DNA of 64,000 nucleotides, from NCBI RefSeq assembly GCF_009834535.1, contig NC_045696.1, positions 5,520,001 to 5,584,000 of the forward strand, read 5' to 3'. The stretch comes from Camelus ferus. Taxonomy: Eukaryota. Shown one piece after another: positions 1,994 through 45,384 of the stretch (positions are counted from its first letter, which is position 1; every line of letters starts with the position of its first letter). Below the pieces are notes generated by a model, which worked only from the letters and a program-made list of their open reading frames with translations, did not search any database and was not told where the DNA came from. A program made the position numbers and the translations under genes.

Positions 1994-3185
1994 TAGGTGA
2001 GCAAGTGAGCCAGTGAATGAATGAATGAGTGTAGGATGGGCTGAGATCCAGAGCAAAAAGTATTAAAAAAAAAAAAAAAAAAGGTAAAATTTTATTGAAA
2101 TGTTTTATTGCTAGCTAACATCATACGAAGATTAACCATGGCGTGTAGAGTTAAAACCCAAAGTGTTGCCGGTGGATGTAACAGGTGTTCCAGGTTCTTG
2201 ACCCATCCCAGAAAGAATTCAGGGGCAAGACATAGTGATCAAAAAAAGTAAAGTGAGGATTTATTAAGGGATGGACAGTACACGCTCAAGGGGAGAGTGG
2301 GCAGGCTCAGGTAAGTGGCCGCCCTGTGTTTCTTTGGCAAGTTAGTTACATATGGTATAAAAATGAATGGGTGGAATATTCACTGGGGAGGGGAGGTTTT
2401 GGGGTCACATTCCCAGATTATCATCCCAACTCCACCTTCCCAAAGGGAGGAGGGATTTCTGTCCTTATTTAGTCTCAATTGGAAGTGTCATGACAACGGT
2501 GCATGATGGGTAATTCTAATCCGCAAGGCTAATTTTATTGAAATGCGGGCATAATGAGCAAAAGGTTACATTCGGACACTGGGAATTCCTACCTTTTCTC
2601 ACCTTTCTTTATCGATCTCCAGGCCATTCATCATCCCAAAAGTGGTGACCACTTATCAGCCCAAAGGCTCCCGCTCTTCTTTCTCTGCCCAGGGACCCCA
2701 GGTGCTTACATGATGTATGGTTTCCTGCATTTGGCTTGTGCCCCTCCTTTCTGCCCAATTCCTGCCATTTGGTCTGTGTCCCCCTTTCTCTGCTCATATC
2801 TAGCTGTCTGCCCGCTCTGACAAAAGGAGCATGTGTCTTTCTGGCAGGAAGGCAGTGAGGTCTCCACACCTGAGAGCAGGGTCAACGTGAGGGTGGAAGG
2901 CACCCCTTGAGGTGAAGGTGCTGAGGTCTTCCAGGGTCTTACGTGGAAAGCCAAGTTCAAGGATTCCCACATAGTAGGTAAGAGAAATGTTTGCTTTTTT
3001 TTTTTTTAAATAAAACAAATATCCTCTGTTCCCCCCACCTGATGGCATCTGTTGCCTGAGAAGATAAACACTGTTGAAAGGGCCTCATAAATGTTAAATG
3101 ATTCTGCACCTTCTGTTTCATGGCAGCTTTTATGCATATTTGAACAACAGAAGACAGGGAGGAGCAAAACTCTTTATCCAGGGTG
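1994..3185 (+). repeat. Copy A of inverted local duplication (interrupted by LTR)
   Basis: After removing 2164-2826, it aligns by eye as the reverse complement of ~22425-22965. Confidence 0.9.
2164..2822 (-). mobile_element. Solo ERV1-class LTR
   Basis: TG...CA termini with 4-bp TSD AAAG (2160-2163, 2823-2826) and a minus-strand AATAAA near 2261. The uninterrupted empty site is visible in the paralogous copy near 22800. Confidence 0.85.
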
Positions 3186-4679
3186 GTCGCTATTTCCTCT
3201 TGTAAATGTTCAGATGCCACCTGTTTCCCAGGAACTGACTTTAAGTTCAACAGCACAGAGACTCTCTGTTTTTCCCCTCGTCTGGACCCCGTCACTGCCC
3301 ACGACTGCGGCTTCTCACAGGTGCCCGGTAGGAGCTCTGAGAAATACTCTGGGATGTGACTGGTCTGGAGCTGAAGCGTCCACTTGTCATTGAAATGCTG
3401 GATTAATTTTCTGACTATCTTTTCATCTCTCCTATGTCTCCCTCCCTTTATATATTGTCCCACTCTTTCCAGCCAGAAGACCTTCTTTGGAAGACCACAG
3501 ATTGAGTGATTCCATTGGCTTTCCTCTACCTAGGGCGCGAGAACATCTTCCTCACCGAGGTCTTACACTTCTCAGTCACCTGACCTTCTCCTTACAGGTC
3601 CCTGCCAAAGAGTTTTATTCCATTTATACAGAGCACCTCCCCTCATCCTTCGTACATTATTTCATAAAGCTGAGCTCAAAGACCGTCCTGTGCAGCCTTC
3701 TGTCTTCTCTAGGTGCCTTTCCCTTTAGTATTACTCGTGAGTTCTAATTCATCATTTTATTTTTTCAAAGTTTCTATTCCTTATGGGTAAATATCCCTTT
3801 TCAGAGTCTGGAGTTAGATTGCTGAATGTTAACATTTCTTTAAAATAAAGAGAAGGAAAAAATCCAGGAAGGAGGGAAAGTTGTATACTAGCAAGAGATC
3901 AAGTCGAGGGGATGCCAAGAAAATAAGTTGAGAAGTTTGTGGCCACGAAGAGCGAGCATATTCAGAATTTCTAATACAAGCACATCAAAAGCAGGAAGCC
4001 ACTTCTATTTTCATTGGAATGTAAAAGGGGTATTTGGGAATGAAAGCAAAACGGCACAGGGTTTTTCCCACACTTGCACTAAAAACATCAAAAGTACACA
4101 CGCTCGCTGTGGAATAATCCAAAGATTCTGGAGCTGCGCCAAGTTCCCCAAATGCCATGATCGCTACCCAGAGACAACCACGGTGAACAATTCTGTATGT
4201 ATCTTCTTAAGATGTGAGGATTTCTTTGAGACAGTCTTTACTGAATCTGAAGGGTCAAATGAGCTTTTATGGCAGAAGTATCAGAAGCCTCAGACGTAGT
4301 CATGTTTGGCAAACAGGATGTTCTCAATCAAAATTTACAAAAATCATTTTTAATGAGTTATTCGGTCTTCTGGGCAGCTATCCAAGCTGAAATTCTGAAG
4401 AAGCTGCTCAGAATGTTGCTGTCGAACCCACCCTTCCTGAAGGACAGATGCTGGTGGGTGAGCCCCCAGCCAAATACACCTGCTGAGGGGTTTGCATATT
4501 TTCCTGTTTTAAAGGATACCCCATTCATAATACATAAATAAAATGAGACTATACAAATGTATGTATCTGCAAATATACATACGTATGTATACATATATAC
4601 ATAGACATCCCTCTTTCTTGCCATCACACGTACCTTGAACACGAGGTTTCCTAAATAGCTCTGAGTCTGTTAGTCACCC

Positions 4680-31020: not shown

Positions 31021-33188
31021 TGAGTGGTCAGGGGAGGACTTGATAAGATGACACTGAGCAGATGTCTGAAACTCATGACCTAAATGAGCCATGGAGATGG
31101 GGAGGGCCAGGCAGACAACAGCAAGATCAGAGGCAAGACCAAGGCCATACGTGTGGTGTCTGAGGAACAGCCAAGTGCACCTGTGCGGCTGAAATAGAGC
31201 AAAGGGAGAGACTGACTACACACTGCCCTGCAGAGCCAACCACTGACTTAGAGATCTCACATTCAAGCACAAGCCATTAACATGCTTTTGAGCAAATGGC
31301 ACTACATGTTCCAGCCTCCTGAACTGAACTTCTCAACTCAATTTATTTATAACAGTTTCCTTCACTGGTTGATTCTGATTTCATCCAGTTTCATCCATGA
31401 TTCCTTCTTCTTCTGACGTGGTTCATAAAGAAATATGCACAACGTTAAGTGCATGATGGTTCTGTGACAAAGACTCGATGACAGAGTTGTCCCTGAGTTG
31501 GGGGTGGCACGTACAGGCACACCGCTGCCCCAGCCAAGGAAGGGAGGTGTACGAGAAACCCCATCACCACACACTGTCAGTGCCCACCGTCCCCCAGCCC
31601 TGGCCAAGCCAACTGAGTAGCAGTTCAGGGATGGCTGTGTGATCACCGACCCCAGCAGGCTGAGGCGTGGGCACGACATTTCTGGATCACCTCTTCTTCT
31701 GTGTTGGTGAACCAGGAAGACTAAAGAGTGAGCTGATGGGCCCCTCCTAGAAGCCTTGGTCGCAGTGGCCGTTGCCCAGTTACCCCAGGCTGGCCTCGGG
31801 TTTATCATTTAACAAGGTGATAAGAGTTCTAAACAAACAGACTGGGTGAACTGCTAAGAGAGGCTCGCTGGACACAGAAAAGATTGGGGTAGGGGGGTTG
31901 TCATCAGGAGAGGCTGCACGGAGGAAATGATGTCTTGGCTAAAATTTGAATGATGAGGATTTTCTAGGTATGAAATGTGCAAAAGCACCCTAGGGGAGAA
32001 AGTAGCTGGGACAGTGGCTCAGAAGCAAAAGAGAACATAAGACACTTTTAAAAAATCAATTCACTATCGTTCAAGTGTGACGGGAAGTGTAGCGAGAGAG
32101 CAGTTCCGGACAGCACAGCCTCGTTGGACACACAGAGTCCAGACTTCATGCTAAAAGCAGGAGGCAGGAAAGGAAGGATTTCAAGCAGGGAAGTGACGTG
32201 ATAAAGTTTGATGTCGCTGATGGTAGTAGATTGAACATGGGCAAGACCAGAAGAAAGGCACTCAGATAAAATTCACAGTTCTCCCCATGATTTCAGAGGG
32301 CACATCCAGGAGAAGTGTGCAACGTCATAATATCCATATTCGAGTCCCGCCTCTGCCACCAATATACCCACAAATACACCCCAGTGAGCCAAACACGGCA
32401 AGATCCGACCAGTCCCAATTCAGCCACATGGATGCTGTAATTATTTGGAAAGAATCCATCTTCATGGGGTTTGCCTTCCCATTCTTTTAACTTAAAAATT
32501 ATTTCAGTCAAACAAAATTATGCCACTTGTCTTATAAGGCAAAGCAGCTATAACAGATACACGTACACGCACGTGTTCGACGTACACATAAACCTATCGT
32601 CATGGCAGCTCTTCTCTCCAGTACACTAACATCTCATTAAGACATTCTTTTCCTTTGAAAAGTTCCCAGTGCAGGACAGGTTTTCTACTATGAACAAAAC
32701 AGGAGTTTGAGCCAAATTTAAATAGACCTTAAAGGACAGCTAGCCTTAGCTGCCATCAAGATTATACTGGTAGATGGAAAGAGGAGTCTGGGGCCGCTAC
32801 TGTATTATTATTTTTCATAAAAAAAATAAAACCTTATCTGCAATTGCATCTTTTGAAAGAATCTCCCACCACCGTCACCAAAAAAGAAAAACTTTCCATT
32901 TCTTAGATCTAATTCTAGTTTCTTCCTGTCATCCCCAAGATACATCAAATGAACTTTGAACCAAGAATAGGTGTTCACAAAGGAAGTACTCTTATAGGAA
33001 ATGATCGTTATCTTTTAGAAAAACTTTCTCGACCGTCCATAACCATTTCTCCGTGGGTCTGTGCGTGGAAGAAGGAAGACGAGTGTCTGAGTGCACGGCC
33101 ATCGTGAGGACTGTGCATTCGATCTGGAAGCTCCCTGCTCTCCACTTCCTGCTCAGTGTCTCCATCTCATTGGTCTTATTATCGTCTT

Positions 33189-33252
33189 CACACACACACA
33201 CACACACACACACACGCATGCACGTGCGCACGCACGCGCACACACACACACA
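33189..33252. repeat. (CA)n/(CG)-interrupted microsatellite
   Basis: Direct reading. Confidence 0.95.
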
Positions 33253-34364: not shown

Positions 34365-36099
34365 AAAAGTGAAGCTGTCTGACCCCAAAATTCATGTTTA
34401 TATCTGTTATATTGTAATGTCTGCTTATGCTTTGGCACGACCAGAGAAACTTGAAAATCAGCTTTAACCAACTGTTTATACTTAAATTATAAAACACAAA
34501 GGGATAAAACAATGGGCTGTCAGCTTTTTGATACTGAAAAGTAGGTAAGAATACAGGTGACCTAATGCCTATAAATCTGTTTTGCAAATAACTTTTACTC
34601 AAGAGTTATGTTCAAACGACTTAGCAATTTCATGTCATGGTGGCCAATCAGTGGGAGTGGATGGTGGCGAAGACGTTGGAACCAGGTGGGGGAGGGCGGC
34701 CCTGCAGAGTTGGGTGCTAACCCTTTAGTTGCTGGGTCATGGGGCAGTGGAGAGGAGGGCGTCCCAGGAGGAGAGCCAGGGCAGGATACTATTTACCGAC
34801 TGCTGCAGAAGTATTTCAACACTTTGTTCATCAATATGAGCAACCCAGGGCATTCCAGCAAGGGCAGCCTGCTTCCAGCCCACTCTGTCCTCACTGTGGT
34901 GTGGGTGCCACACTGAACTCTGCAGAGACCCGTCTCCTGTATCTTACGCCCACTTGAAGAAGACAGATGGACATAAAGTCTTGAACACTGGATCCCACAA
35001 AACTCCCTTTTTTGCCCCGAAGATTCCCACGACTCAAGAGAAGAGCTCCAGAATACAGACTACCCAATGAACACGGTGGAAGAGTTCATTCTTGTCAATG
35101 AACACATGAAGTGCCAGGTGACTGGTCTAAACTTCCGCAAGGCGGCAGGGAGAATGAGTTTAATAGCAAAACGTTGACAACACAGGCAACCCAGGTGAAA
35201 ATTTAAACCCAGCTCATGATGGCCTTATTTTTAACAGTAAATGATGCCAAAAACAATCAGTGTCCCAGGGTTATGGGCTAACTCTTAGACGTCACTGCAG
35301 CAGGACCTAACCTGAAGGTCTCTGCTGATCCCAAAGAGGCTCTCTGGAGAATTTAAGGATTCTCCCACAGATTAGATCACGTTTGCTGTGTGGGAAGGGA
35401 CCAAAAATAGTAGGAACAAAGAAAACTGCCCTTTAGAGTCAAACAGAGGTTTGAATCCGAGGTCTACAACTTCCTAGTGTGTGTTCTAAGCAGGATGCTT
35501 AAGTTTTTGGAGCCTCTATTTCCCCAACTGGAAATAAACTTCTATAAAAATAACACTTAGGTCTTACAGCCATTGGAAGGATTAAATAAGACAATAAATG
35601 AAAAGTCCATTAAAGAGTATCTGGTATGTAGCAAACATTCAATAAATATGAGTTCCCTTTCCTGACCAAGAAATTCACTTCATGCTTGGGCTTAAGGCAC
35701 AGTGCTCTGGTTACAGAGGTGAATGAATGACAAGTACATTCTGTCCCTAACACCTACAATCAAATCTCCCTACTTGGTATTTACTCAAGAGAAATAAAAA
35801 CACTTGTGTACAGGGAGAGGCCAAGATGGTGGAGTAGAAGGGTGCTCATAGCTCACCCTCTCTCGCCGATACACCAAGACTCACATCCACGGACCCAGTC
35901 AGCCAATCAGAGCACTTGCAGAGCTCCGACAGAACATCGCCCTCTTCAAAAGACAAAGATGCCAAAAATCGGGTAGGAGAAAAGGAAAAAGGAAAGAAGA
36001 AAAGGCAAAACAGAGCAGGACAGGTCCTGCGGGGAGGGAGCAGCAAAGGAGGACTGGCGCTTGTTCGCTGGGTCTCCCCTCTCCAATGGAGAGGCCAGC

Positions 36100-37000
36100 G
36101 GGACAGAGGGGGAGCCTCCGAGGCTCGGATCTGTACGGAGCACCCCTTGACCGACAGAACTAAGTTAAACGGGCACATAGGGTCCCCGCGACACCCAGCC
36201 TGAGATGCAAGCCGGCAGCTGGGGGCCGGGACAGGCCGCCCCAGCCGGGCGGAGGACGGGGGCGGCTGCGCTGAGGCAGCCCTGGGGACTGCAGGGCGCT
36301 GTGAGCCGTGGATGAGAGGGTGCACAGGGCAGAACAACCTGGGCCCTCCATGAAACAGCACGGCTGATGTGCCCTTGGGGGTAAGGATGCACACCCCATC
36401 TCTGAAAACCTCCGGAAGGTTTTCGGGTAAAGAGAGACGGGGCTCAGGCACAGCCGCCATGACCTCCGCGCTGAGCACCCAGGCGGGGGCGGGGGCGAAA
36501 CCCGCATCCACACCTAAGGGCTCCGCAGCCTCAAGGGCCAGATGGAGACTCGTCTACAGCCCGAGGCAGGTAGGATCCTTCCGTCCTGGTACCTCAGAGA
36601 ATTCGAGTCACCAAGATAAACAAGGAGCTGGGGTTTGGCCATGAGCAGGGACAGGGCTGTTCCTCGGTCGTCCCCGAGCCCGCCTGCGGAGCGCCGACCC
36701 GGGGCGGAGCGCGCAGCGGCACAGAGCAGCGGAGCGACCGGCGCCGGGAGAGGGCGGGCGGCCCCCGCCTTGCGGGCAGGAAGGCAGCATCTGACCGCGT
36801 GCTGGGAGGGCGCGATCAGCCTGCCTGCTGAGCCAGTCTGCTGTGTCTGACTGCGGCATCGTGAGGGGCGGTGGCCCGCCCGTCCACAGCGAAGGAGAGC
36901 TGCACCTGACCCAGTGCTGGGAGGGGGCGCGATCTGCGTGCCGACCGGCACTGGAAGCAGCCCTGACGAGGGCGCCAACGGAGGGCCTCTGGAAACAGCA
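36100..37000. promoter_or_regulatory. CpG island within host L1 5'UTR
   Basis: 21 CpG counted by hand in 36661-36780; several GGGCGG boxes. Confidence 0.75.
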
Positions 37001-37236
37001 AGCTGAGCTTCCAAAACCGGACGAAGACAGAAAGACTTCTCATTAAGAGCACACAGTCTCCAGGAGAACACACCCCCGTTTATTTTAATCTGTTCTTACC
37101 TGTTCTATTTTCTGTTACCTTTTTAATTTTTACTTTTTAAACAATCATATATGCTTCCAGTTTTACTCCCTTTTAAATTTTTTCTTTTAAAATATTTTTT
37201 ATTATTATTTTTAAAAATCCATGTCATTTCATTTTT

Positions 37237-40200
37237 TTTAACTTTTTTTTTTATTCAGTAGTAGCTATTTTACAATGTTGTGTCAAATTCTACTGTAGAG
37301 CACAATTTTTCAGTCATACATGAACATGTATATATTCATTGTCACATTTTTTTTTACTATGAGCTACCACAAGATCTTGTATATTTTTCCCAGTGCTATA
37401 CAGTATAATCTTGTTTATCTATTCTGCATTTTAAAATACCAGTCTGTCCCTTCCCACTCCCCTCCCCCTTGGCAACCACAAGTTTGTATTTTATGTCTGA
37501 GTCTGTTTCTGTTTTGTATTTATGTTTTGGGATTTTTTTGTTGTTTTTTTTTTAAGATTCCTCTTATAAGCAATCTCATATGATATTTTTCTTTCTCTTT
37601 CTGGCTTACTTCACTTTGAATGACATTCTCCAGGAACATCCATGTTGCTGCAAATGGCGTTATGCTGTCAGTTTTTGTGGCTGAATAGTATTCCATCATA
37701 TAAATATAGCACCTCTTCTTTATCCATTTATCTGTTGATGGACTTTTAGGCTGTCTCCATGTCTTGGCTATTGTAAATAGTGCTGCTATGAATATTGGGG
37801 TGCAGGTGTCATTTGCAAGTAGGGTTCCTTCTGGATATATGCCCAGGAGTGGGATTCCTGGGTCACATGGTAAGTCTATTCCTAGTCTGTTGAGGAATCT
37901 CCCTGCTGTTTCCCACAGTGGCTTTCCTTGCTTCCCTCTCCCACTCTTGATGATTTAGATGTCTTCTTTTACAATTTTGTGTTTATTCTTTTTGTAATTC
38001 ATGGCAGTTATCTCCTTTCCAGTTATGAGTTTCTCATTTTTGTAGCATCCTGCTTCTTTTCTATTTAGAGTAGACCTGTCCATATTTCTTTTAGCATGGG
38101 TTTAGTGTTGCTAAACTCTTCTAGCATTTGCTTGTCTGTGAAGTTATCTCTCCTTCTATTCTAAAGGATAGCCTTGCTGGATAGAGTACCCTAGGCTGCA
38201 TGTTTTTTTCTTTCAGGACTTTGAATATATTTTGCCACTCCCTTCTGGCCTGTAGTGTTTGTGTAGACAAATCCGCTGAGAGCCTTATGGGGGTTCCCTT
38301 GTAACTCACTCTTTGTTTTTCTCTTGCGGCCTTTAGGATCATTTCTTTATCCTTGACTCTGGCCATCTTGATTATGATATGTCTTGGGGTGGGTCTGTCT
38401 GGGTTCTTCCTGTTTGGGACCCTCTGAGCCTCCTGTACTTGGATATCTGATTCCTTCTTTAGGTTTGGGAAGTTTTCAGTCATGATTTCTTCAAATACCT
38501 TTTCAATCCCCTTTTATCTTTCTTCCCCTTCTGGGACCCCCATTATGCGTAGATTGGTACACTTTATATTATCGTATAGGTTCTTTATATTGTTTTCATT
38601 GTTTTTCATTTGTTTTTCTCGCAGCTGTTCTGATTCGGTGCTTTCTGTTGTCCTGTCTTCTAGGTCACTTATTCGTTCCTCTGCATTATCCAGCCTGCTT
38701 TCCACAGCCTTTGGGTCAGCTCTCATCTCAGCAAATGAGTTTACTCATTCTACTTGGCTCTTCTTTATAGCTTCTATTTCATTTTTGACATATTTTATAT
38801 CTCTAAACACTATTTCTTTTAGTTCCTTCAGTACTTTGGTAACTTCTTTTTTGAAATCTTGATCTAGTAGGCCATCAATGTCTATGTCTTTGATTGTGCT
38901 TTCAGGGGATTTCCCTTGCTCTTTTAATTGGGAGTGGTTCCTCTGCTTCTTCATATTGCTCGTATCTCTCTGGCACTGTGGCTTAAGGAGTATCAGTTAT
39001 CTAGTTCTCCTGGAGACGATGTGCTCTTAATGATTTTCTCAAGAGGTCTTTGTGTCTTTGCCCTGTTTCACGAACTCAGCTTGCTGTTTCCAGAGGCCCT
39101 TTATTGGTGCCCTCATCCGTGCTGCTCCCAGTGGCTGACGGCTAGCAGATCATGCCCCCTCCCAACACTGGGTCAGGAGCTGAGCTCTTACCCGGTGGGC
39201 AGGCGGGTCACTGCCCCTCCCGATGCCGCAGTCAGATGCTGTGCTCAGGGGGAGGCAGGTGCGTGGATCACCCCTCCCAGCACCGTGGTCAGGTGCTGCG
39301 TTCCTGCCAGGAACTGGGGTGGCCGCACACCCTCTCCTGGTGCTAGTCACTCTGCTGCTCTGTGCAGCTGCCCACTCGGCCTCAGGTTGGCACTCTGTAG
39401 GCAGGCTTGGGGAAGACCACGGAACAGCTCTGCCCCTGCTCCATGCCAAATCTCATCTCCTTGTTTGTCTTGGTGGCGCAACTACTCTGAGGTGCCAGGG
39501 CAGAAAGATCCTATCTGCCACGGGCTGTAGACAAGTCTCAGTCCTGCCTAGGAGGTTCCGGAGCCCCCGGGTGCGGATTCAGGGCTCGGCTTGCCCCTGC
39601 CCGGGCGTGCGCACAGGAAGAGATGGCGGCTGTGGCTGCGCCCTGCCTCTCTTCTTGCAAGAAACACCAGTCTTGGGGGTGCAAGTCTGAAGAGACAAAG
39701 ACTACAGCGCACCTCCCTCCAGGGCACACCAGCCGTGTTGCTTTGCTTTTTTCGCAGTTTATGGGGGACCGAGGTTGTTCTGCTCCGTATCCCCTCCCAG
39801 TAACAGCGCACAGCCCCCTGCAGTCCCTGGGGGCTGCCTCAGTGCAGCCGCCCCAGTCCTCTACCCAGTTTGGGTAGCCTGTCCCAGCCCCAGCTGCCAA
39901 CTCACATCTCGGGCTGGGTGTCGTGTGCACCCTTTATACCTGTTTAACTCAGTTCTGTCGATCAAGGGGTGCTCAGGGCAGATCTGAGCCTCAGAAGCTC
40001 CCCTTCCATCCCGCTGGCCTCTCTGTTGGAGAGGGGAGACCCAGCGAGCGAGCGCCAGTCCTCCTTTCCCGCCCCCTCCCCGCAGGATTGGTCCCGCACT
40101 GTTTTGCTTTTTCTTCTTTCTTTTTTCCTTTTCTCCTACCAGATTTTTGGCGTCTTTGTCTTTCAACGACAGCAATGTTCTGTCGGAATTGAGCAGGTGC

Positions 40201-40300
40201 TCTGGTTGGCTGAATAGGCCTGTAATTGTGAGTTTTGGTGTATTTCTGGGAGAGGGTGAGCTACAAGCATCCTTCTACTCCGCCATCTTGCCCGATGGAG
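37237..40300 (-). mobile_element. Nested antisense L1 (~3.06 kb): 5'UTR + ORF1 + 3' end, ORF2 missing
   Basis: Perfect 19-bp TSD TCCATGTCATTTCATTTTT (37218-37236, 40301-40319); polyT at 37237; 5' end CAAGATGGCGG on the minus strand at 40280-40290. Confidence 0.93.
38121..38954 (-). pseudogene. L1 ORF1 (disrupted)
   Basis: MKKQRNHSQLK..., NLRIMGVPEGEE, ENFPNL, RPTPRHIIIK, IRLSADLS and ARREW..YPARLSF, split by a stop and frameshifts. Confidence 0.92.
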
Positions 40301-41009
40301 TCCATGTCATTTCATTTTTATTTCTCTTGGTTTTAATCTACTGTAATTGATTATACACAGGTTTCAAATATTTTTATCCTCTTTTCTCCTTTTTTAAAGG
40401 TTTTTAAAAGATGTCTCAACCCGATTGCTATTCTGCTTCAACTTGCTCTTCTATTATTCATTATAAACTGTTTTCAAATCTTTTTTTCTGCCTTCTTTTA
40501 AAATTCCCTCTTTATTTTTTTTATCTGTTCCATTTTCTATTACCTTTTTAATTTCTACTTTCTGAATAATTGTATATGTGTCCAGTTTTAATTCCTTTTA
40601 AACTTTTCTTTAAAGTAGTTATATTATTATTTTTTAAATCCACCTGATTTCATTTTCATTTCTTTTGATTTTCATCTCCTGTTATTGATTATACTCGGGT
40701 TTCAAATATTGTTTTTTTAATCTTTTTTCCTTTCTTTTAAGGGTTTTTAAAAAGACATTTCAACTCGATTGCTAGTCTGATTCAAATTGCTCTCTATTAT
40801 TGATTATACACTGTTTTCAAACCTTTCTTCTCCCTTCTTTTAAAATTCTCCTTCTCTCTCTCTCTCTCTCTTTTTTTTTTTAAGTTTTATTCCTACATAG
40901 GCATTAGATAGATAAATAAACTCCTTAAGGACGACAATAGATAACTGATACTCCATAAGCCACAGTGCCAGAGAGATATGAGCAAGATGAAGAAGCGGAG
41001 AAACCATTC

Positions 41010-44000
41010 CAAAGATTGAGAGTGAAAAGATGGAAGGGATATTCCATGCAAATGGAAAAGCAAAAACAGCAGGTGTAACAGTACTGATTTCAGACAAAAT
41101 AGACTTTAAAACAAAGGCCATAAAGTAAGATAAAGAAGGACATTTTATAATGAAAAAAAGAGTGATACAAGGTGAGGATATTACACTCATAAATATATAT
41201 GCACACAATATAGGAGTACCTAAGTACATAACATGATTACTAACAGAGATAAAGGGGGATATTGATGGGGATACAATCATTGTCTGAGATTTTAACACCA
41301 CATTAACATCACTAGACAGATCTTCCAGACAGAAAATAAATAAGGCAACAGAGAATCTAAATAATACAATAGAAAAATTAGATATGGTGGATATCTTCAA
41401 AGCATTACACTCCCCCCTAAAATAGGATATACATTCTTTCCAAGGGCACATGGAACATTTTCTAGGGTTGATCATGTACTTGGGCACAAAAGAAGCCTCA
41501 ACAATTTTAAGAAGATAGAAATGATCTGAAGCATCTTTACTGACCACAATGCCATGAAACTAGAAATCAACTACAGAGAAACAAAAGATAAAAAAAAAAG
41601 GAAAGCATGGAGATTAAACAACAATCTATTAAAAAATGAATGGTCAATGAAGAAATCAAAGTTGAAATTTAAAAAATACCTTGAGACAAATGAAAATGAA
41701 AACACCACCACACAAAATTTATGGGACACAGCAAAGGCAATGATGCAAGGGAAGTTTATAGCGATACAGGCCTTCCTCAAAAAAGAAGAACAATCTCAAA
41801 TCAACAATCTAACCCACCAACTAAAAGAACTAGAAAAAGAAGAGCAAAAGATCCCAAAAGGCAACAGAAGGAAGGAAATAACAAAGATCAGGGAGGAAAT
41901 ATACAAAATAGAGATTTTTAAAAACCATAGAAAAAAATCAAACCAAAGGCTGGTTTTTTAAAAAGTAGATAAAATCAACAAACCTCTAGCCAAACTCACA
42001 AAGAAAAAAGAGAGAGCACAAATAAGCAAAATAAGAAGGGAAAATTGAGAAATTACAACAAATAAAATAGAAATACAGAATATCATATGAGAATATTATG
42101 AAAAACTATATGAAACCAAGCTGGATAACCTAAAGGAGATGGACAAGTTTCTGGAAACATACAGCCCACCAAGACTGAACCAAGAAGAAACTGACCACTT
42201 GAACAAACTGATCACTAGAAATGAAATTGAATAAGCAATTAAAAAAAACTTCCCTACAAATGAAAGTACAGGACCAGACGGCTTCACTGGGGAATTCTAC
42301 CATACAAAGAATAACTCATACCAGTCCTTCTCAAACTCTTCCAGAACATTGAAAAGGAGGGAATACTCCCAAACTCATTCTATGAAGCCACAATCACCCT
42401 GATACCAAAACCAGGCAAAGACACTACCAAAAAAGAGAATTATAGGCCAATATCACTGATGAACATAGATGCAAAAATCCTCACCAAAATATTAGCAAAT
42501 AGAGTCCAGCTGACAATAAAAAAAAAATTATACATCATGACCAAGTGGGGTTCATGCCAGGGACACAAGGGTGGTTCAACATATGCAAATCAATCAATAT
42601 AATACATCACATCAACAAGAAAAAGGACAAAAACCATATGATCATCTCAATAGATGCAGAAAAACCATTTGATAAAATTCAACACCCATTTATGACAAAA
42701 ATTCTGACCAAAGCGGGTATACAGGGAACATATCTCAACATAATAAAAGCTATATATGACAAACATACAGCCAGCATAGTACTCAACGGTGAAAAACTCA
42801 AAACCTTCCCACTAAAATCTGGGACAAGAAAAGGCTACCCACTATCACCACTCCTATTCAACATAGTCTTGGAAGTCCTAGCCACAGCAATCAGGCAAGA
42901 GAGAGAAATAAAAGGGATCCAAACTGGAAAAGAAGAGGTAAAGTGTCACTATATGCCGATGACATGTTACTGTATATAGAAAACCCTAAAAGGTCCACAC
43001 AAAAACTACTAGAACTGATCGAAGAATTCAGCAAGGTAGCAGGTTACAAGATTAACGTTCAAACATCAGTGGCATTTCTTTACACTAACAATGAATCAAC
43101 AGAAAAAGAAAGTAAAGAAACAATCCCCTTTAAAATAGCACCTGAAGTAACAAGATACCTAGGAATAAATCTAACCAAGGAGGTGAAAGAATTACATACA
43201 GAAAACTATAAACCATTGATGAAGGAAATTAAAGAAGACTTTAAAAAATGGAAAGATATCCCACGCTCTTGGATTGGAAGAATCAATATTGTCAAAATGG
43301 TCACACTGCCCAAGGCAATCTACAAATTTAATGCAATCCCTATCAAATTACCCAGGACGTATTTCACAGAACTAGAACAAAGCATTATAAAATTTATATG
43401 GGGCCACAAAAGACCTAAAATTGCTAATCACTACTGAAGGAAAAGAAAGAGGCTGGAGGAATAACTCTCCGAGACTTCAGACAATCCTATAGAGCTACAG
43501 TCATCAAGACAGCATGGTATTCATACAAAAACAGACATATAGATCAATGGAATAGAGAGCCCAGAAATGAACTCACAAACTTTTGGTCAACTCATCTTTG
43601 ACAAAGGAGGCAAGAATATACAATGGAATAAAGACAGTCTCTTCAGCAAATGCTGTTGGGAAAACTGGACAGCAGCATGTAAAGCAATGAAGCTACAACA
43701 TTCCCTTATACCATACACAAAAATAAACTCAAAATGGATCAAAGACTTAAACATAAGACAAGATACAATAAACCTCCTAGAAGAAAATATAGGCAAAACA
43801 TTATCTGACACACATCTCAAAAATGTTCTCCTAGAACAGTCTACCCAAGCAATAGAAATAAAAGCAAGAATAAACAAATGGGACCTAATGAAACTTACAA
43901 GCTTCTGCACACCAAAGAAAACCATAAGTAAAACAAGAAGACAACCTACAGAATGGGAGAAAATGTTTGCAAATGTAACCGACAAATTCTTGATCTCCAG

Positions 44001-44337
44001 AATATATAAGCAGCTCATACGACTTAATACAAAAGACACAAACAACCCAATCCAAAAATGGGCAGAAGACCTAAACAAGCAACTCTCCAAGGAAGAAATA
44101 CAAATGATCAATAGGCACATGAAAAAATGTTCAAAATCACTAATTATCAGAGAAATGCAAATCAAAACTACAATGAGGTATCACCTCACACCAGTCAGAA
44201 TGGCCATCATACAAAAATCCACAAATGATAAATGCTGGAGAGGCTGTGGAGAAAAGGGAACCCTCCTACACTGCTGGTGGGAATGCAGTTTGGTGCAGCC
44301 ACTGTGGAAGACAGTATGGAGATTCTCAAAAGACTAG
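41010..44337 (+). pseudogene. L1 ORF2 (EN/RT), with multiple stops and frameshifts
   Basis: Fragments in the ORF track at 41554-41961, 42545-42979, 42943-43437 and 43567-44337 lie in different frames. Confidence 0.93.
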
Positions 44338-45384
44338 GAATAGACTTACCGTATGACCCAGGAATCCCGCTCCTGGGTATGTATCAGAAGGAACCCTACT
44401 TCAAAATGACACCTGCATCCCAATATTCATAGCAGCACTATTTACAATAGCCAAGACATGGAGACAGCCTAAAAGTCCATCAACAGATAAATGGATAAAG
44501 AAGAGGTGGTATATTCATACAATGGAATAGTATTCAGCCATAAAAACCGACAACATAACACCATTTGCAGCAACATGGATGTTCCTGGAGAATGTCATTC
44601 AAAGTGAAGTAAGCCAGAAACAGAAAGAAAAATACCATATGAGATTGCTCAAATGTGGAATCTAAAAAAAACCAAAACATAAATACAAAAAGGAAACAGA
44701 CTCATAGAACACAAACTTACGGTTGCCAAGGTGGCGGGGGGGTGGGAAGGGATAGACTGGGGTTTCAAAATGTAGAATAGATAAACAAGGTTATACTGTA
44801 TAGCACAGGGAAATATACACAAGATCTTATGGTAACTTACAGAGAAAAAAAAAGTGACAATGAATATATATATGTTCATGTATAGCTGAAAAATTGTGCT
44901 CTACACTGGAATTTGACACAACATTGTAAAATGATTATAAATCAATAAAAATGTTATAAAAAAAAAACTAGTGTACGAAAAGTCTTCTCCATAAAAATTT
45001 ATGGCAGCTTTTATCAAAATAGCCAGAAACTAGAAATGACTCAGATGCCCATTAACAGATAGATAAAGAAACAAATTACCAGAGGATAATCCCATATTCA
45101 GCAACAGAAGGGTACAAACCAACATGGATGAATCTCCAAAACATTTCCAAGAGGGAAGGAAGCCAGACAAAGAGAAAATAGCTGTTTTCCTCATTTATCT
45201 GAAGTTCTAGACAAGGAACTCAATGGAGTCAGAAAGCAGAGTGGTGGTTGCCTGTGGATGGGCTGGAAGGCAAAGGAATGCAAGAGAATGTACCCGGTGA
45301 TAGAAATGTTCTGATCTTGATGGACAGAGGTGTTGGACATGAGTAAGCACATTTCTCAGAACTCATCAAACAATTAACATTGGT

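What the first reader, a model, noticed from the sequence alone, without database searches (positions are those of the whole stretch)
35813..40300. Older host L1 promoter has stayed a CpG island while the younger nested L1 promoter has decayed; the host YY1 site is mutated
Seen: the TSD proves the minus-strand L1 inserted into the plus-strand L1, so it is the younger insertion. Yet homologous 5'UTR segments differ almost entirely at CpGs in the opposite direction to their ages: host CCCCGAGCCCGCCTGCGGAGCGCCGACCCGGGGCGG vs guest CCCCAAGCCTGCCTACAGAGTGCCAACCTGAGGCCG. Hand count: 21 CpG in 36661-36780 vs 2-3 in 39301-39420. The host ORF2 is riddled with stops. The host 5' YY1 motif is AAGATGGTGG (35823-35832), while the guest keeps AAGATGGCGG. 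Known: human L1s lacking an intact YY1 site can escape promoter methylation. Inference: the host 5'UTR is a germline-unmethylated, possibly exapted CpG-island promoter/enhancer between SH3BGR and the next gene. Some non-CpG A-to-G differences also allow GC-biased gene conversion at a recombination hotspot.
Basis: partly seen in the sequence, partly recalled or inferred. Interest (0 to 1): 0.8.

Follow-up and report, generated by a model that had tools for sequence, protein, structure and literature searches.

The report
L1-derived CpG island resisting decay
One old, broken L1 retrotransposon has kept the CpG-rich core of its 5' untranslated region almost intact, while an element nested inside it and dozens of sister copies lost more than half of theirs; the likeliest reason is that this stretch stayed unmethylated in the germ line, which makes it a repeat-derived CpG island of a known kind, not a new mechanism.

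Summary
The sequence facts hold. An exact 19-nt duplication shows that the minus-strand element (37237-40300) inserted into the plus-strand L1. CpG counts are 21 vs 2 in the quoted segments. The host motif is AAGATGGTGG; the guest keeps AAGATGGCGG.

I compared both elements with 81 genomic copies. At 47 CpG sites defined without host or guest, the host keeps 39/46 and the guest 12/45. Old copies keep a median 40-47% (maximum 65%). Host and guest non-CpG divergence is equal (4.7% vs 5.4%).

Four corrections:
- The protected zone is only 36040-37010. The first ~290 nt, including the YY1-like site, decayed normally (5/12 kept; guest 9/12).
- Most host-guest differences are not CpG-type (43 CpG-type vs 157 other).
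- The guest is a HAL1-like, ORF2-less family member.
- Copies with a mutated YY1-like motif keep no more CpG than intact ones.

Best reading (0.6): a germline-hypomethylated, L1-seeded orphan CpG island. Regional GC-biased substitution contributes but does not suffice. Methylation, transcription and orthologues could not be tested. Ordinary to moderately interesting.

The parts
35813..37236 (+). Host L1, 5' piece: GC-rich 5'UTR plus the start of a T-rich repeat region
   Evidence: Homologous over its length to thousands of genomic L1 5'UTR candidates. It continues at 40320 after the guest.
35823..35832 (+). YY1-like motif with its CpG decayed (AAGATGGTGG)
   Evidence: AAGATGGCGG is the commonest form in Y (20/29), G (11/29) and S (3/8). 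The TGG/CAG variants are common.
35813..36039 (+). 5'-terminal part of the host 5'UTR with ordinary CpG decay
   Evidence: 5 of 12 pan-ancestral CpG sites kept in the first ~290 nt (S median 0.29, G median 0.42). o/e is 0.42 for 35813-36099.
36040..37010 (+). Protected CpG-island core of the host 5'UTR
   Evidence: 971 nt, GC 0.67, 75 CpG, o/e 0.69. In 36100-37050, 39/46 ancestral CpG sites are kept, against a median 0.40-0.47 in old copies. The upstream flank has o/e 0.22 and the downstream flank 0.15.
37060..37236 (+). T-rich repeat region of the host 5'UTR, first part, cut by the guest
   Evidence: Units of about 338 nt recur at 40301-40375/40639-40713 and 37093-37210/40518-40635. The region is shared by sibling copies at 85-89% and is absent from the guest.
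37218..37236 (.). Guest target-site duplication, left copy
   Evidence: Exact 19-nt repeat.
37237..40300 (-). Guest: HAL1-like, ORF2-less L1 derivative (5'UTR, ORF1, then the last ~700 nt of L1 and an A tail)
   Evidence: 3.06 kb in all. ORF1 domains Transposase_22 and Tnp_22_dsRBD lie at 38124-38513. No RVT hit was found. 29 of 29 family loci span the same ORF1/3'-end junction near 37950. Its 3' part is 87.7% identical to host 44297-44932.
38991..40300 (-). Guest 5'UTR, CpG-depleted except near its 5' end
   Evidence: 39000-40299 has o/e 0.43. 12/45 ancestral sites are kept in 39050-40000, but 9/12 in the first ~290 nt. AAGATGGCGG lies at 40280-40289.
40301..40319 (.). Guest target-site duplication, right copy
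40320..44968 (+). Host L1, 3' piece: rest of the T-rich region, ORF1 start stub (ATG at 40978), broken ORF2, 3' end and A tail
   Evidence: Sibling matches stop at 41013. The guest ORF1 has no counterpart in the host beyond 40928-41010. RVT_1 fragments lie at 42315-43434. There are 44 or more stops per frame. The A tail and an imperfect flanking repeat are seen. CpG o/e is 0.14 for 41014-44968.

Best explanation
The 971-nt core of the host L1 5'UTR (36040-37010) is an orphan CpG island seeded by the retrotransposon itself. It has stayed largely unmethylated in the germ line for most of its residence. Its CpGs therefore escaped the fast 5-methylcytosine deamination that eroded the nested HAL1-like guest, the host's own 5' end and body, and sister copies elsewhere in the genome.

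Shown: slow CpG loss, normal non-CpG decay, sharp borders, and survival of newly created CpGs.

Inferred: hypomethylation as the cause.

Unknown: why this copy. The mutated YY1-like site is probably a bystander CpG decay. No host-private indel exists. A position effect or private point changes remain possible.
For: 1. Retention. At 47 CpG sites defined from families Y and G only, the host keeps 39/46 (85%). The guest keeps 12/45. 23 siblings picked by a CpG-free region keep a median 0.40 (0.12-0.65). 29 guest-family copies keep a median 0.47 (0.26-0.64). The young family keeps 0.83.
2. Same age. Non-CpG private divergence is host 4.7%, guest 5.4%, sibling median 4.4%. Nesting makes the host at least as old as the guest.
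3. Pairwise asymmetry. Host CG / sibling TG|CA runs 8-42, against 3-9 the other way, in 8 of 8 siblings.
4. At least 61 of the 74 host CpGs are shared ancestral sites.
5. Low loss is the mark of the canonical unmethylated regime. BGC islands show rapid deamination (passages of PMC8286816 summarising Cohen et al. 2011).
6. New CpGs survive. 6 of 11 private W>S changes create a CpG, against 22% in comparators (p about 0.03).
7. Sharp borders. The host's first ~290 nt keeps 5/12. The upstream flank has o/e 0.22, the downstream flank 0.15 and the host body 0.14.
8. Internal control. The guest, 0.2-3.2 kb away, shares the regional GC bias (W>S 33: S>W 15) yet loses CpG normally: 4/10 in its body against 61/193 in its family, and 27% kept in its 5'UTR.
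9. After regressing on divergence and W>S fraction, the host is predicted to keep 0.45 and keeps 0.85 (z 2.2).
Against: - No methylation, chromatin or RNA data were obtained.
- The host has fewer non-CpG S>W changes than its siblings (5 vs mean 10.7, P=0.044) and more W>S (11 vs about 5 per sibling). A sustained gBGC of moderate strength would also produce this.
- Across 53 old copies, CpG retention rises with W>S fraction (rho 0.52, p 7e-5). GC-biased fixation is therefore a general co-determinant.
- The outlier score is only z 2.2-2.7, and the locus was picked because it looked extreme. With thousands of full-length copies in the genome, dozens may look alike.
- Comparators are the best-scoring 40 of about 2100-4500 candidates per search, not a random sample. 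This bias favours less decayed copies, so it should be conservative.
Confidence: 0.6

Rival explanations
1. A narrow GC-biased gene-conversion hotspot sits on the island. It opposes fixation of CpG-to-TpG and other S>W changes and favours W>S, whatever the methylation state.
For: Host private changes are W>S 11 vs S>W 5. Siblings pooled give 118 vs 247, and the S>W deficit has P=0.044. The guest body next door is also GC-biased: 33:15 against 471:473 in its family, p 0.012, rank 2 of 28. Retention correlates with W>S fraction across 53 copies. The window lies 5.5 Mb from a contig end.
Against: - Without the CpG-creating changes the host ratio is 5:5, against 247:92 in siblings (p 0.15).
- The guest shares the regional bias but loses CpG normally.
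- The guest 5'UTR shows the opposite bias, 16:1.
- The host's own first ~290 nt, directly abutting the island, decays normally.
- BGC islands are described as fast-deaminating, whereas here only 4-7 of 46 sites are lost.
- The regression that includes W>S fraction still under-predicts the host (0.45 vs 0.85).
Confidence: 0.15
2. There is no locus-specific mechanism. The host is the upper tail of a broad, partly regional spread of CpG decay among old L1 5'UTRs, and it was noticed because it is extreme.
For: Retention among old copies already ranges from 0.12 to 0.65. The residual SD is 0.29 ln units and z is only 2.2-2.7.
Against: P(X>=39/46) is 0.0025 at the best old copy's rate and 1e-7 at the family median. 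None of 52 other old copies comes near. The jump from 5/12 to 39/46 within one element calls for a local cause.
Confidence: 0.12
3. Purifying selection on an exapted regulatory element conserves the CpGs (binding sites), independent of methylation.
For: High retention with sharp borders. GC-box-like runs inherited from the family are retained. That these are Sp1/KLF-type sites is recalled, not tested.
Against: Non-CpG positions in the same segment diverged as fast as in siblings (4.7% vs 4.4%). The sequence as a whole is therefore not constrained. CpG-island maintenance is reported to involve little selection.
Confidence: 0.08
4. The contrast is an age artefact: either the guest was copied from an already decayed source, or the host is in fact young.
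For: HAL1-like copies are non-autonomous and could be mobilised from any transcribed copy. The guest TSD is still perfect.
Against: No genomic copy shares the guest's private changes: the best 5'UTR match is 86% and the best body match about 93%. Guest versus family CpG loss is symmetric. The host is older than the guest by nesting, carries 19 private non-CpG changes shared by 0-2 of 65 copies at 18 of the 19 sites (one is shared by 10), and has a ruined ORF2.
Confidence: 0.04

Closest known systems
Repeat-derived (retrotransposon-seeded) CpG islands, as surveyed in human by Grandi et al. 2015 (PMC4509998; abstract and section 9 read)
   Same: The CpG island lies wholly inside a retrotransposon, in the GC-rich 5'UTR of a full-length-type L1. 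[quoted passage not shown]
   Different: Here the evidence is evolutionary (retention against sister copies), not methylomic. The copy is old and broken, and only the inner 5'UTR is protected.
Canonical unmethylated, low-deamination CpG-island regime of Cohen, Kenigsberg and Tanay 2011 (seen only as summarised in PMC8286816 passages)
   Same: Low CpG loss with ordinary divergence elsewhere, and no sign of selection on non-CpG sites.
   Different: Methylation state is not measured. There is a modest W>S excess, as in the BGC class, but without that class's rapid deamination.
Human L1 copies lacking the YY1 motif that are hypomethylated (Sanchez-Luque et al. as cited in, and re-examined by, Lanciano et al. 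2024, PMC10879037; passages read)
   Same: The host's YY1-like motif is altered, and the copy behaves as if less methylated.
   Different: Here it is a single CpG-decay point change rather than a 5' truncation. In this genome, motif loss does not go with CpG retention. The motif's own neighbourhood decayed normally.
HAL1 ('half-L1') non-autonomous L1 derivatives that encode only ORF1p (PMC5753468 passages, citing Smit 1999 and Bao & Jurka 2010, which were not read)
   Same: The guest and 29/29 of its relatives have a 5'UTR, ORF1 and an L1 3' end but no ORF2, and they share one junction.
   Different: It is a lineage-specific family with its own 5'UTR. Descent from the classical mammalian HAL1 was not tested, and I could not check Repbase or Dfam for it.

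Membership tests
CpG island (length/GC/o-e criteria of Gardiner-Garden & Frommer and Takai & Jones; thresholds recalled) | At least 500 nt, GC at least 0.55, CpG o/e at least 0.65 | tested here: met
   36040-37010: 971 nt, GC 0.67, 75 CpG, o/e 0.69. It is the only stretch of the 64-kb window passing GC>0.55 and o/e>0.6 in 500-nt windows.
Canonical hypomethylated (low-deamination) CpG island | CpG loss rate well below that of methylated DNA of the same age | tested here: met
   39/46 kept, against a median 0.40-0.47 in 52 old copies and 12/45 in the nested guest.
Canonical hypomethylated (low-deamination) CpG island | Unmethylated in germ cells | not testable with these tools
Biased-gene-conversion island | Rapid deamination offset by high W>S gain | tested here: not met
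   Only 4 TG/CA and 3 other losses at 46 sites. Class definition.
Biased-gene-conversion island | W>S excess at non-CpG sites | tested here: inconclusive
   11:5 overall; 5:5 without CpG-creating changes, against 247:92 in siblings (p 0.15).
LINE-1 (host) | L1 5'UTR homology, reverse transcriptase, A tail, flanking duplication | tested here: met
   thousands of candidates; RVT_1; A tail, imperfect repeat. ORF1 is missing apart from its first codons.
HAL1-like non-autonomous L1 (guest) | ORF1 present, ORF2 absent, amplified as such | tested here: met
   Transposase_22 and dsRBD hits. The element is 3.06 kb with no RVT hit. The same junction is found in 29/29 family loci. 2162 first-look candidates for its 5'UTR.
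HAL1-like non-autonomous L1 (guest) | Descent from the named mammalian HAL1 families | not tested
YY1-site-deficient L1 escaping methylation | Motif loss goes with lower methylation or better CpG retention | tested here: not met
   Retention of mutated vs intact copies: G 0.49 vs 0.49 (13 vs 11 copies), Y 0.70 vs 0.85 (7 vs 20), S 0.40 vs 0.49 (3 vs 3).
Exapted L1 promoter/enhancer | Transcripts or active chromatin starting in the element | not testable with these tools

The most novel reading that the evidence does not exclude
The inner 5'UTR of this dead L1 has been a germline-unmethylated orphan promoter for tens of millions of years. It escaped silencing because it was cut off early from the L1 body that attracts transcription-coupled repression: ORF1 was lost and a HAL1-like element landed 170 nt downstream in antisense. 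It now drives a host transcript. If this were general, 'orphaned' L1 promoters would be a regular source of new CpG islands.
Probability: 0.08. Interest if true: 0.55.

Novelty: new member of a known kind. Interest (0 to 1): 0.3.

Why it matters
The nested pair is a clean natural experiment. Two homologous CpG-rich promoters of nearly equal age sit 2 kb apart in one recombination and mutation environment, and their CpG fates are opposite. This isolates a sub-kilobase, locus-specific protection, most simply lack of germline methylation, and shows how a retrotransposon can seed a lasting CpG island.

It also gives two cautions:
- Similarity searches with a CpG-retaining old copy pull out the youngest family rather than its true siblings.
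- A mutated YY1-like site is not by itself a marker of escape in this genome.

The phenomenon as such (repeat-derived CpG islands, locus-specific L1 hypomethylation) is already known.

Tried and rejected
- Laying reads. No expression, start-site or cross-species data came of it.
- Sequencing-run listing. 14 DNA runs of two coded organisms hold 0.54-0.60 of the sampled words. RNA runs hold 0.06-0.19. None was laid, so this is no evidence either way.
- Orthologues from metagenome contigs. Two island-specific 24-mers gave 0 hits.
- Composite retrotransposition or duplication of the nested pair. The host/guest junction is unique in the genome; only the self-match spans it.
- Host-private indel removing a repressor site. 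None of 3 nt or more; the gaps against the guest are family-level.
- Broad hypomethylated domain. The flanks are CpG-poor. A CpG-rich-looking stretch at 32.4-33.4 kb is single-copy, but its signal comes largely from degenerate CA-type repeats.
- Earlier notes of this scan: none for this genome.
- Pfam on short host ORFs between 40959 and 42399 gave nothing. The exact ORF1-ORF2 deletion junction therefore rests and on my own reading.
- TRF found no array in the 5'UTR.
- Bao & Jurka 2010 is not held. A search for HAL1 together with camelid terms listed only one paper containing the word HAL1, once (PMC6726744, listing only).

Full report
ANATOMY

The window is G000:C1:5520001-5584000 of a 2.09-Gb genome.

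- **Host.** A plus-strand L1 runs from 35813 to about 44968. It ends in an A tail and an imperfect flanking repeat.
- **Guest.** The host is interrupted at 37236/40320 by a minus-strand element (37237-40300). An exact 19-nt duplication at 37218-37236 and 40301-40319 brackets it, so the guest is the later insertion.
- **Junction.** The host/guest junction is unique in the genome. The pair was therefore not copied as a unit.
- **Host condition.** The host is broken.
  - Sibling matches stop at 41013, and the guest's ORF1 has no counterpart in the host beyond 40928-41010. ORF1 is therefore deleted.
  - RVT_1 is split over three overlapping ORFs.
  - Every frame of 41014-44968 has 44 or more stops.
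- **Host 5'UTR.** It has a GC-rich part (35813-37060) followed by a T-rich region of about 338-nt repeats. The guest's family lacks this region.
- **Guest is not an ordinary L1.** It has a 5'UTR and an ORF1 (Transposase_22 plus dsRBD), followed directly by the last ~700 nt of L1.
  - All 29 of 29 related loci span the same junction.
  - It therefore belongs to an abundant HAL1-like, ORF2-less family. HAL1 is defined in PMC5753468 (passages).

THE OBSERVATION

The quoted strings are aligned to each other.
- The island is 36040-37010: 971 nt, GC 0.67, 75 CpG, o/e 0.69. It is the only such stretch in the window.
- Over the 951-nt homologous segment there are 38 host-CG/guest-TG|CA sites, 5 the reverse and 13 shared. 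There are also 157 other substitutions. The two 5'UTRs are 76-82% identical and belong to different families.

COMPARISON WITH OTHER COPIES

- **Young family (Y).** The best genomic matches of the host segment are 29 copies that are mostly about 97% identical to each other but only 85% identical to the host. They were pulled out because both they and the host are CpG-rich (40-70 CpG).
- **Siblings (S).** To avoid that bias I chose siblings by similarity to the CpG-free T-rich region and fetched their 5'UTRs. 23 of 28 were usable. L071, L074, L075, L077 and L084 lacked most of the segment.
- **Guest family (G).** 29 copies came.
- **Alignment.** All 83 sequences were aligned.

Results at 47 CpG sites defined from Y and G alone, and at 407 conserved non-CpG columns:

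| Sequence or group | Ancestral CpG kept | Non-CpG private divergence |
|---|---|---|
| Host | 39/46 | 4.7% |
| Guest | 12/45 | 5.4% |
| S (23 copies) | median 0.40 (0.12-0.65) | median 4.4% |
| G (29 copies) | median 0.47 (0.26-0.64) | median 2.8% |
| Y (29 copies) | median 0.83 | median 1.0% |

Retention and the host, guest and S divergences come; the G and Y divergence medians come from the earlier 67-sequence alignment.

- The host is as old as the others by non-CpG change but keeps CpG like the youngest family.
- Regression on divergence predicts 0.36 for the host (z 2.7).
- Pairwise counts agree: host CG / sibling TG|CA is 8-42, against 3-9 the reverse, in 8 of 8 siblings.
- The guest is an ordinary member of its family (17 vs 21). 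Its family carries CG at the sites the guest lost.

LIMITS OF THE PROTECTED ZONE

- In the first ~290 nt the host keeps 5/12 ancestral CpGs. This is ordinary (S median 0.29, G median 0.42). The guest keeps 9/12 there.
- CpG o/e is 0.22 in the upstream 2.3 kb, 0.15 in the downstream 2 kb and 0.14 in the host body.
- Protection is therefore confined to about 1 kb inside the 5'UTR. It excludes the 5' end that carries the YY1-like site.

YY1

- AAGATGGCGG is the commonest form in all three families, and its CpG-decay variants are common.
- Copies with a mutated motif keep no more CpG than intact ones.
They give no support here.
- No host-private indel exists.

HYPOMETHYLATION OR gBGC?

- **Host private non-CpG changes.** W>S 11 and S>W 5. 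Six of the W>S changes create CpGs, against 22% in comparators (p about 0.03). Without them the ratio is 5:5, against 247:92 in siblings (p 0.15). The S>W count is low (5 vs mean 10.7, P 0.044).
- **Guest body.** It is also GC-biased: 33:15 against 471:473 in its family, p 0.012, rank 2 of 28. Its CpG loss is nevertheless ordinary (4/10 vs 61/193).
- **Guest 5'UTR.** It shows the opposite bias, 16:1.
- **Across copies.** In 53 old copies, retention correlates with W>S fraction (rho 0.52, p 7e-5). With both predictors the host is predicted to keep 0.45 and keeps 0.85 (z 2.2).

My reading is that regional GC-biased fixation exists and helps, but it does not explain a sharp 1-kb zone with very low CpG loss. 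By the published classes, low deamination marks unmethylated islands, whereas BGC islands deaminate fast.

WHAT IS MISSING

- There are no methylation, transcription or orthologue data.
- The age in years is only an inference. About 4-5% non-CpG divergence suggests tens of millions of years at recalled mammalian rates.

VERDICT

- This is a real, statistically supported, locus-specific slow-down of CpG decay in an L1 5'UTR core. It is best explained by germline hypomethylation (0.6).
- It belongs to the known class of repeat-derived CpG islands (PMC4509998).
- Because the locus was chosen for looking extreme and z is 2.2-2.7, dozens of similar copies may exist in this genome.

Noticed in passing
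window 37237-40300 (-); loci L032-L060: The guest belongs to an abundant ORF2-less, HAL1-like family of about 3.06 kb (5'UTR, ORF1, last ~700 nt of L1). 29 of 29 fetched relatives share the same junction, and the 5'UTR search had 2162 first-look candidates. The open papers I searched do not describe it for this group of animals (listing only). Repbase and Dfam could not be checked.
   Followed up: partly
loci L002-L030: A young L1 5'UTR family: most copies are about 97% identical to each other, with about 1% private non-CpG divergence and 60-67 CpG per 951 nt. The YY1-like motif is intact in 20 of 29. This points to fairly recent L1 activity in this genome.
   Followed up: partly
alignment of 53 old copies (S, G, guest): CpG retention in old L1 5'UTRs correlates better with the copy's W>S share of non-CpG changes (rho 0.52, p 7e-5) than with its non-CpG divergence (rho -0.32). 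The local GC-biased regime, or methylation level, shapes CpG decay copy by copy.
   Followed up: partly
window 40000-40300 (-): The guest keeps 9 of 12 ancestral CpGs in its first ~290 nt, at the top of its family's range (0.25-0.75). It keeps only 27% further in. This is the reverse of the host's pattern.
   Followed up: no
window 40978-41014 (+): The host L1 lacks ORF1 apart from about 12 codons and runs straight into ORF2-derived sequence. That the sequence after the junction is the endonuclease part of ORF2 is my reading only; Pfam found nothing in the short ORFs there.
   Followed up: partly
window 37060-37236 and 40320-40900 (+): A T-rich region of degenerate repeats of about 338 nt lies between the GC-rich 5'UTR and ORF1 in the host's subfamily. 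It is shared by 40 scored genomic copies at 85-89% and is absent from the guest family.
   Followed up: partly
window 35822-37069 vs 39004-40290: The two 5'UTRs form a large imperfect inverted repeat. Arms are up to 403 nt at 83% complementarity, about 1.25 kb in total, with a spacer of about 2 kb. Read-through transcripts could fold back on themselves.
   Followed up: no
window 32540-32600, 33020-33130, 33190-33250: A single-copy stretch with CpG o/e 0.8-0.96. Much of the signal comes from degenerate CA-type repeats carrying CG. In addition, 9 CpGs sit in 110 nt of unique sequence at 33020-33130.
   Followed up: partly
G000:C1:5606150-5606383 (-), about 22 kb beyond the window end: The best Pfam SH3BGR match in the genome: 104 bits, positions 8-86 of 99, in one open frame of 90 aa. 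Not examined.
   Followed up: no
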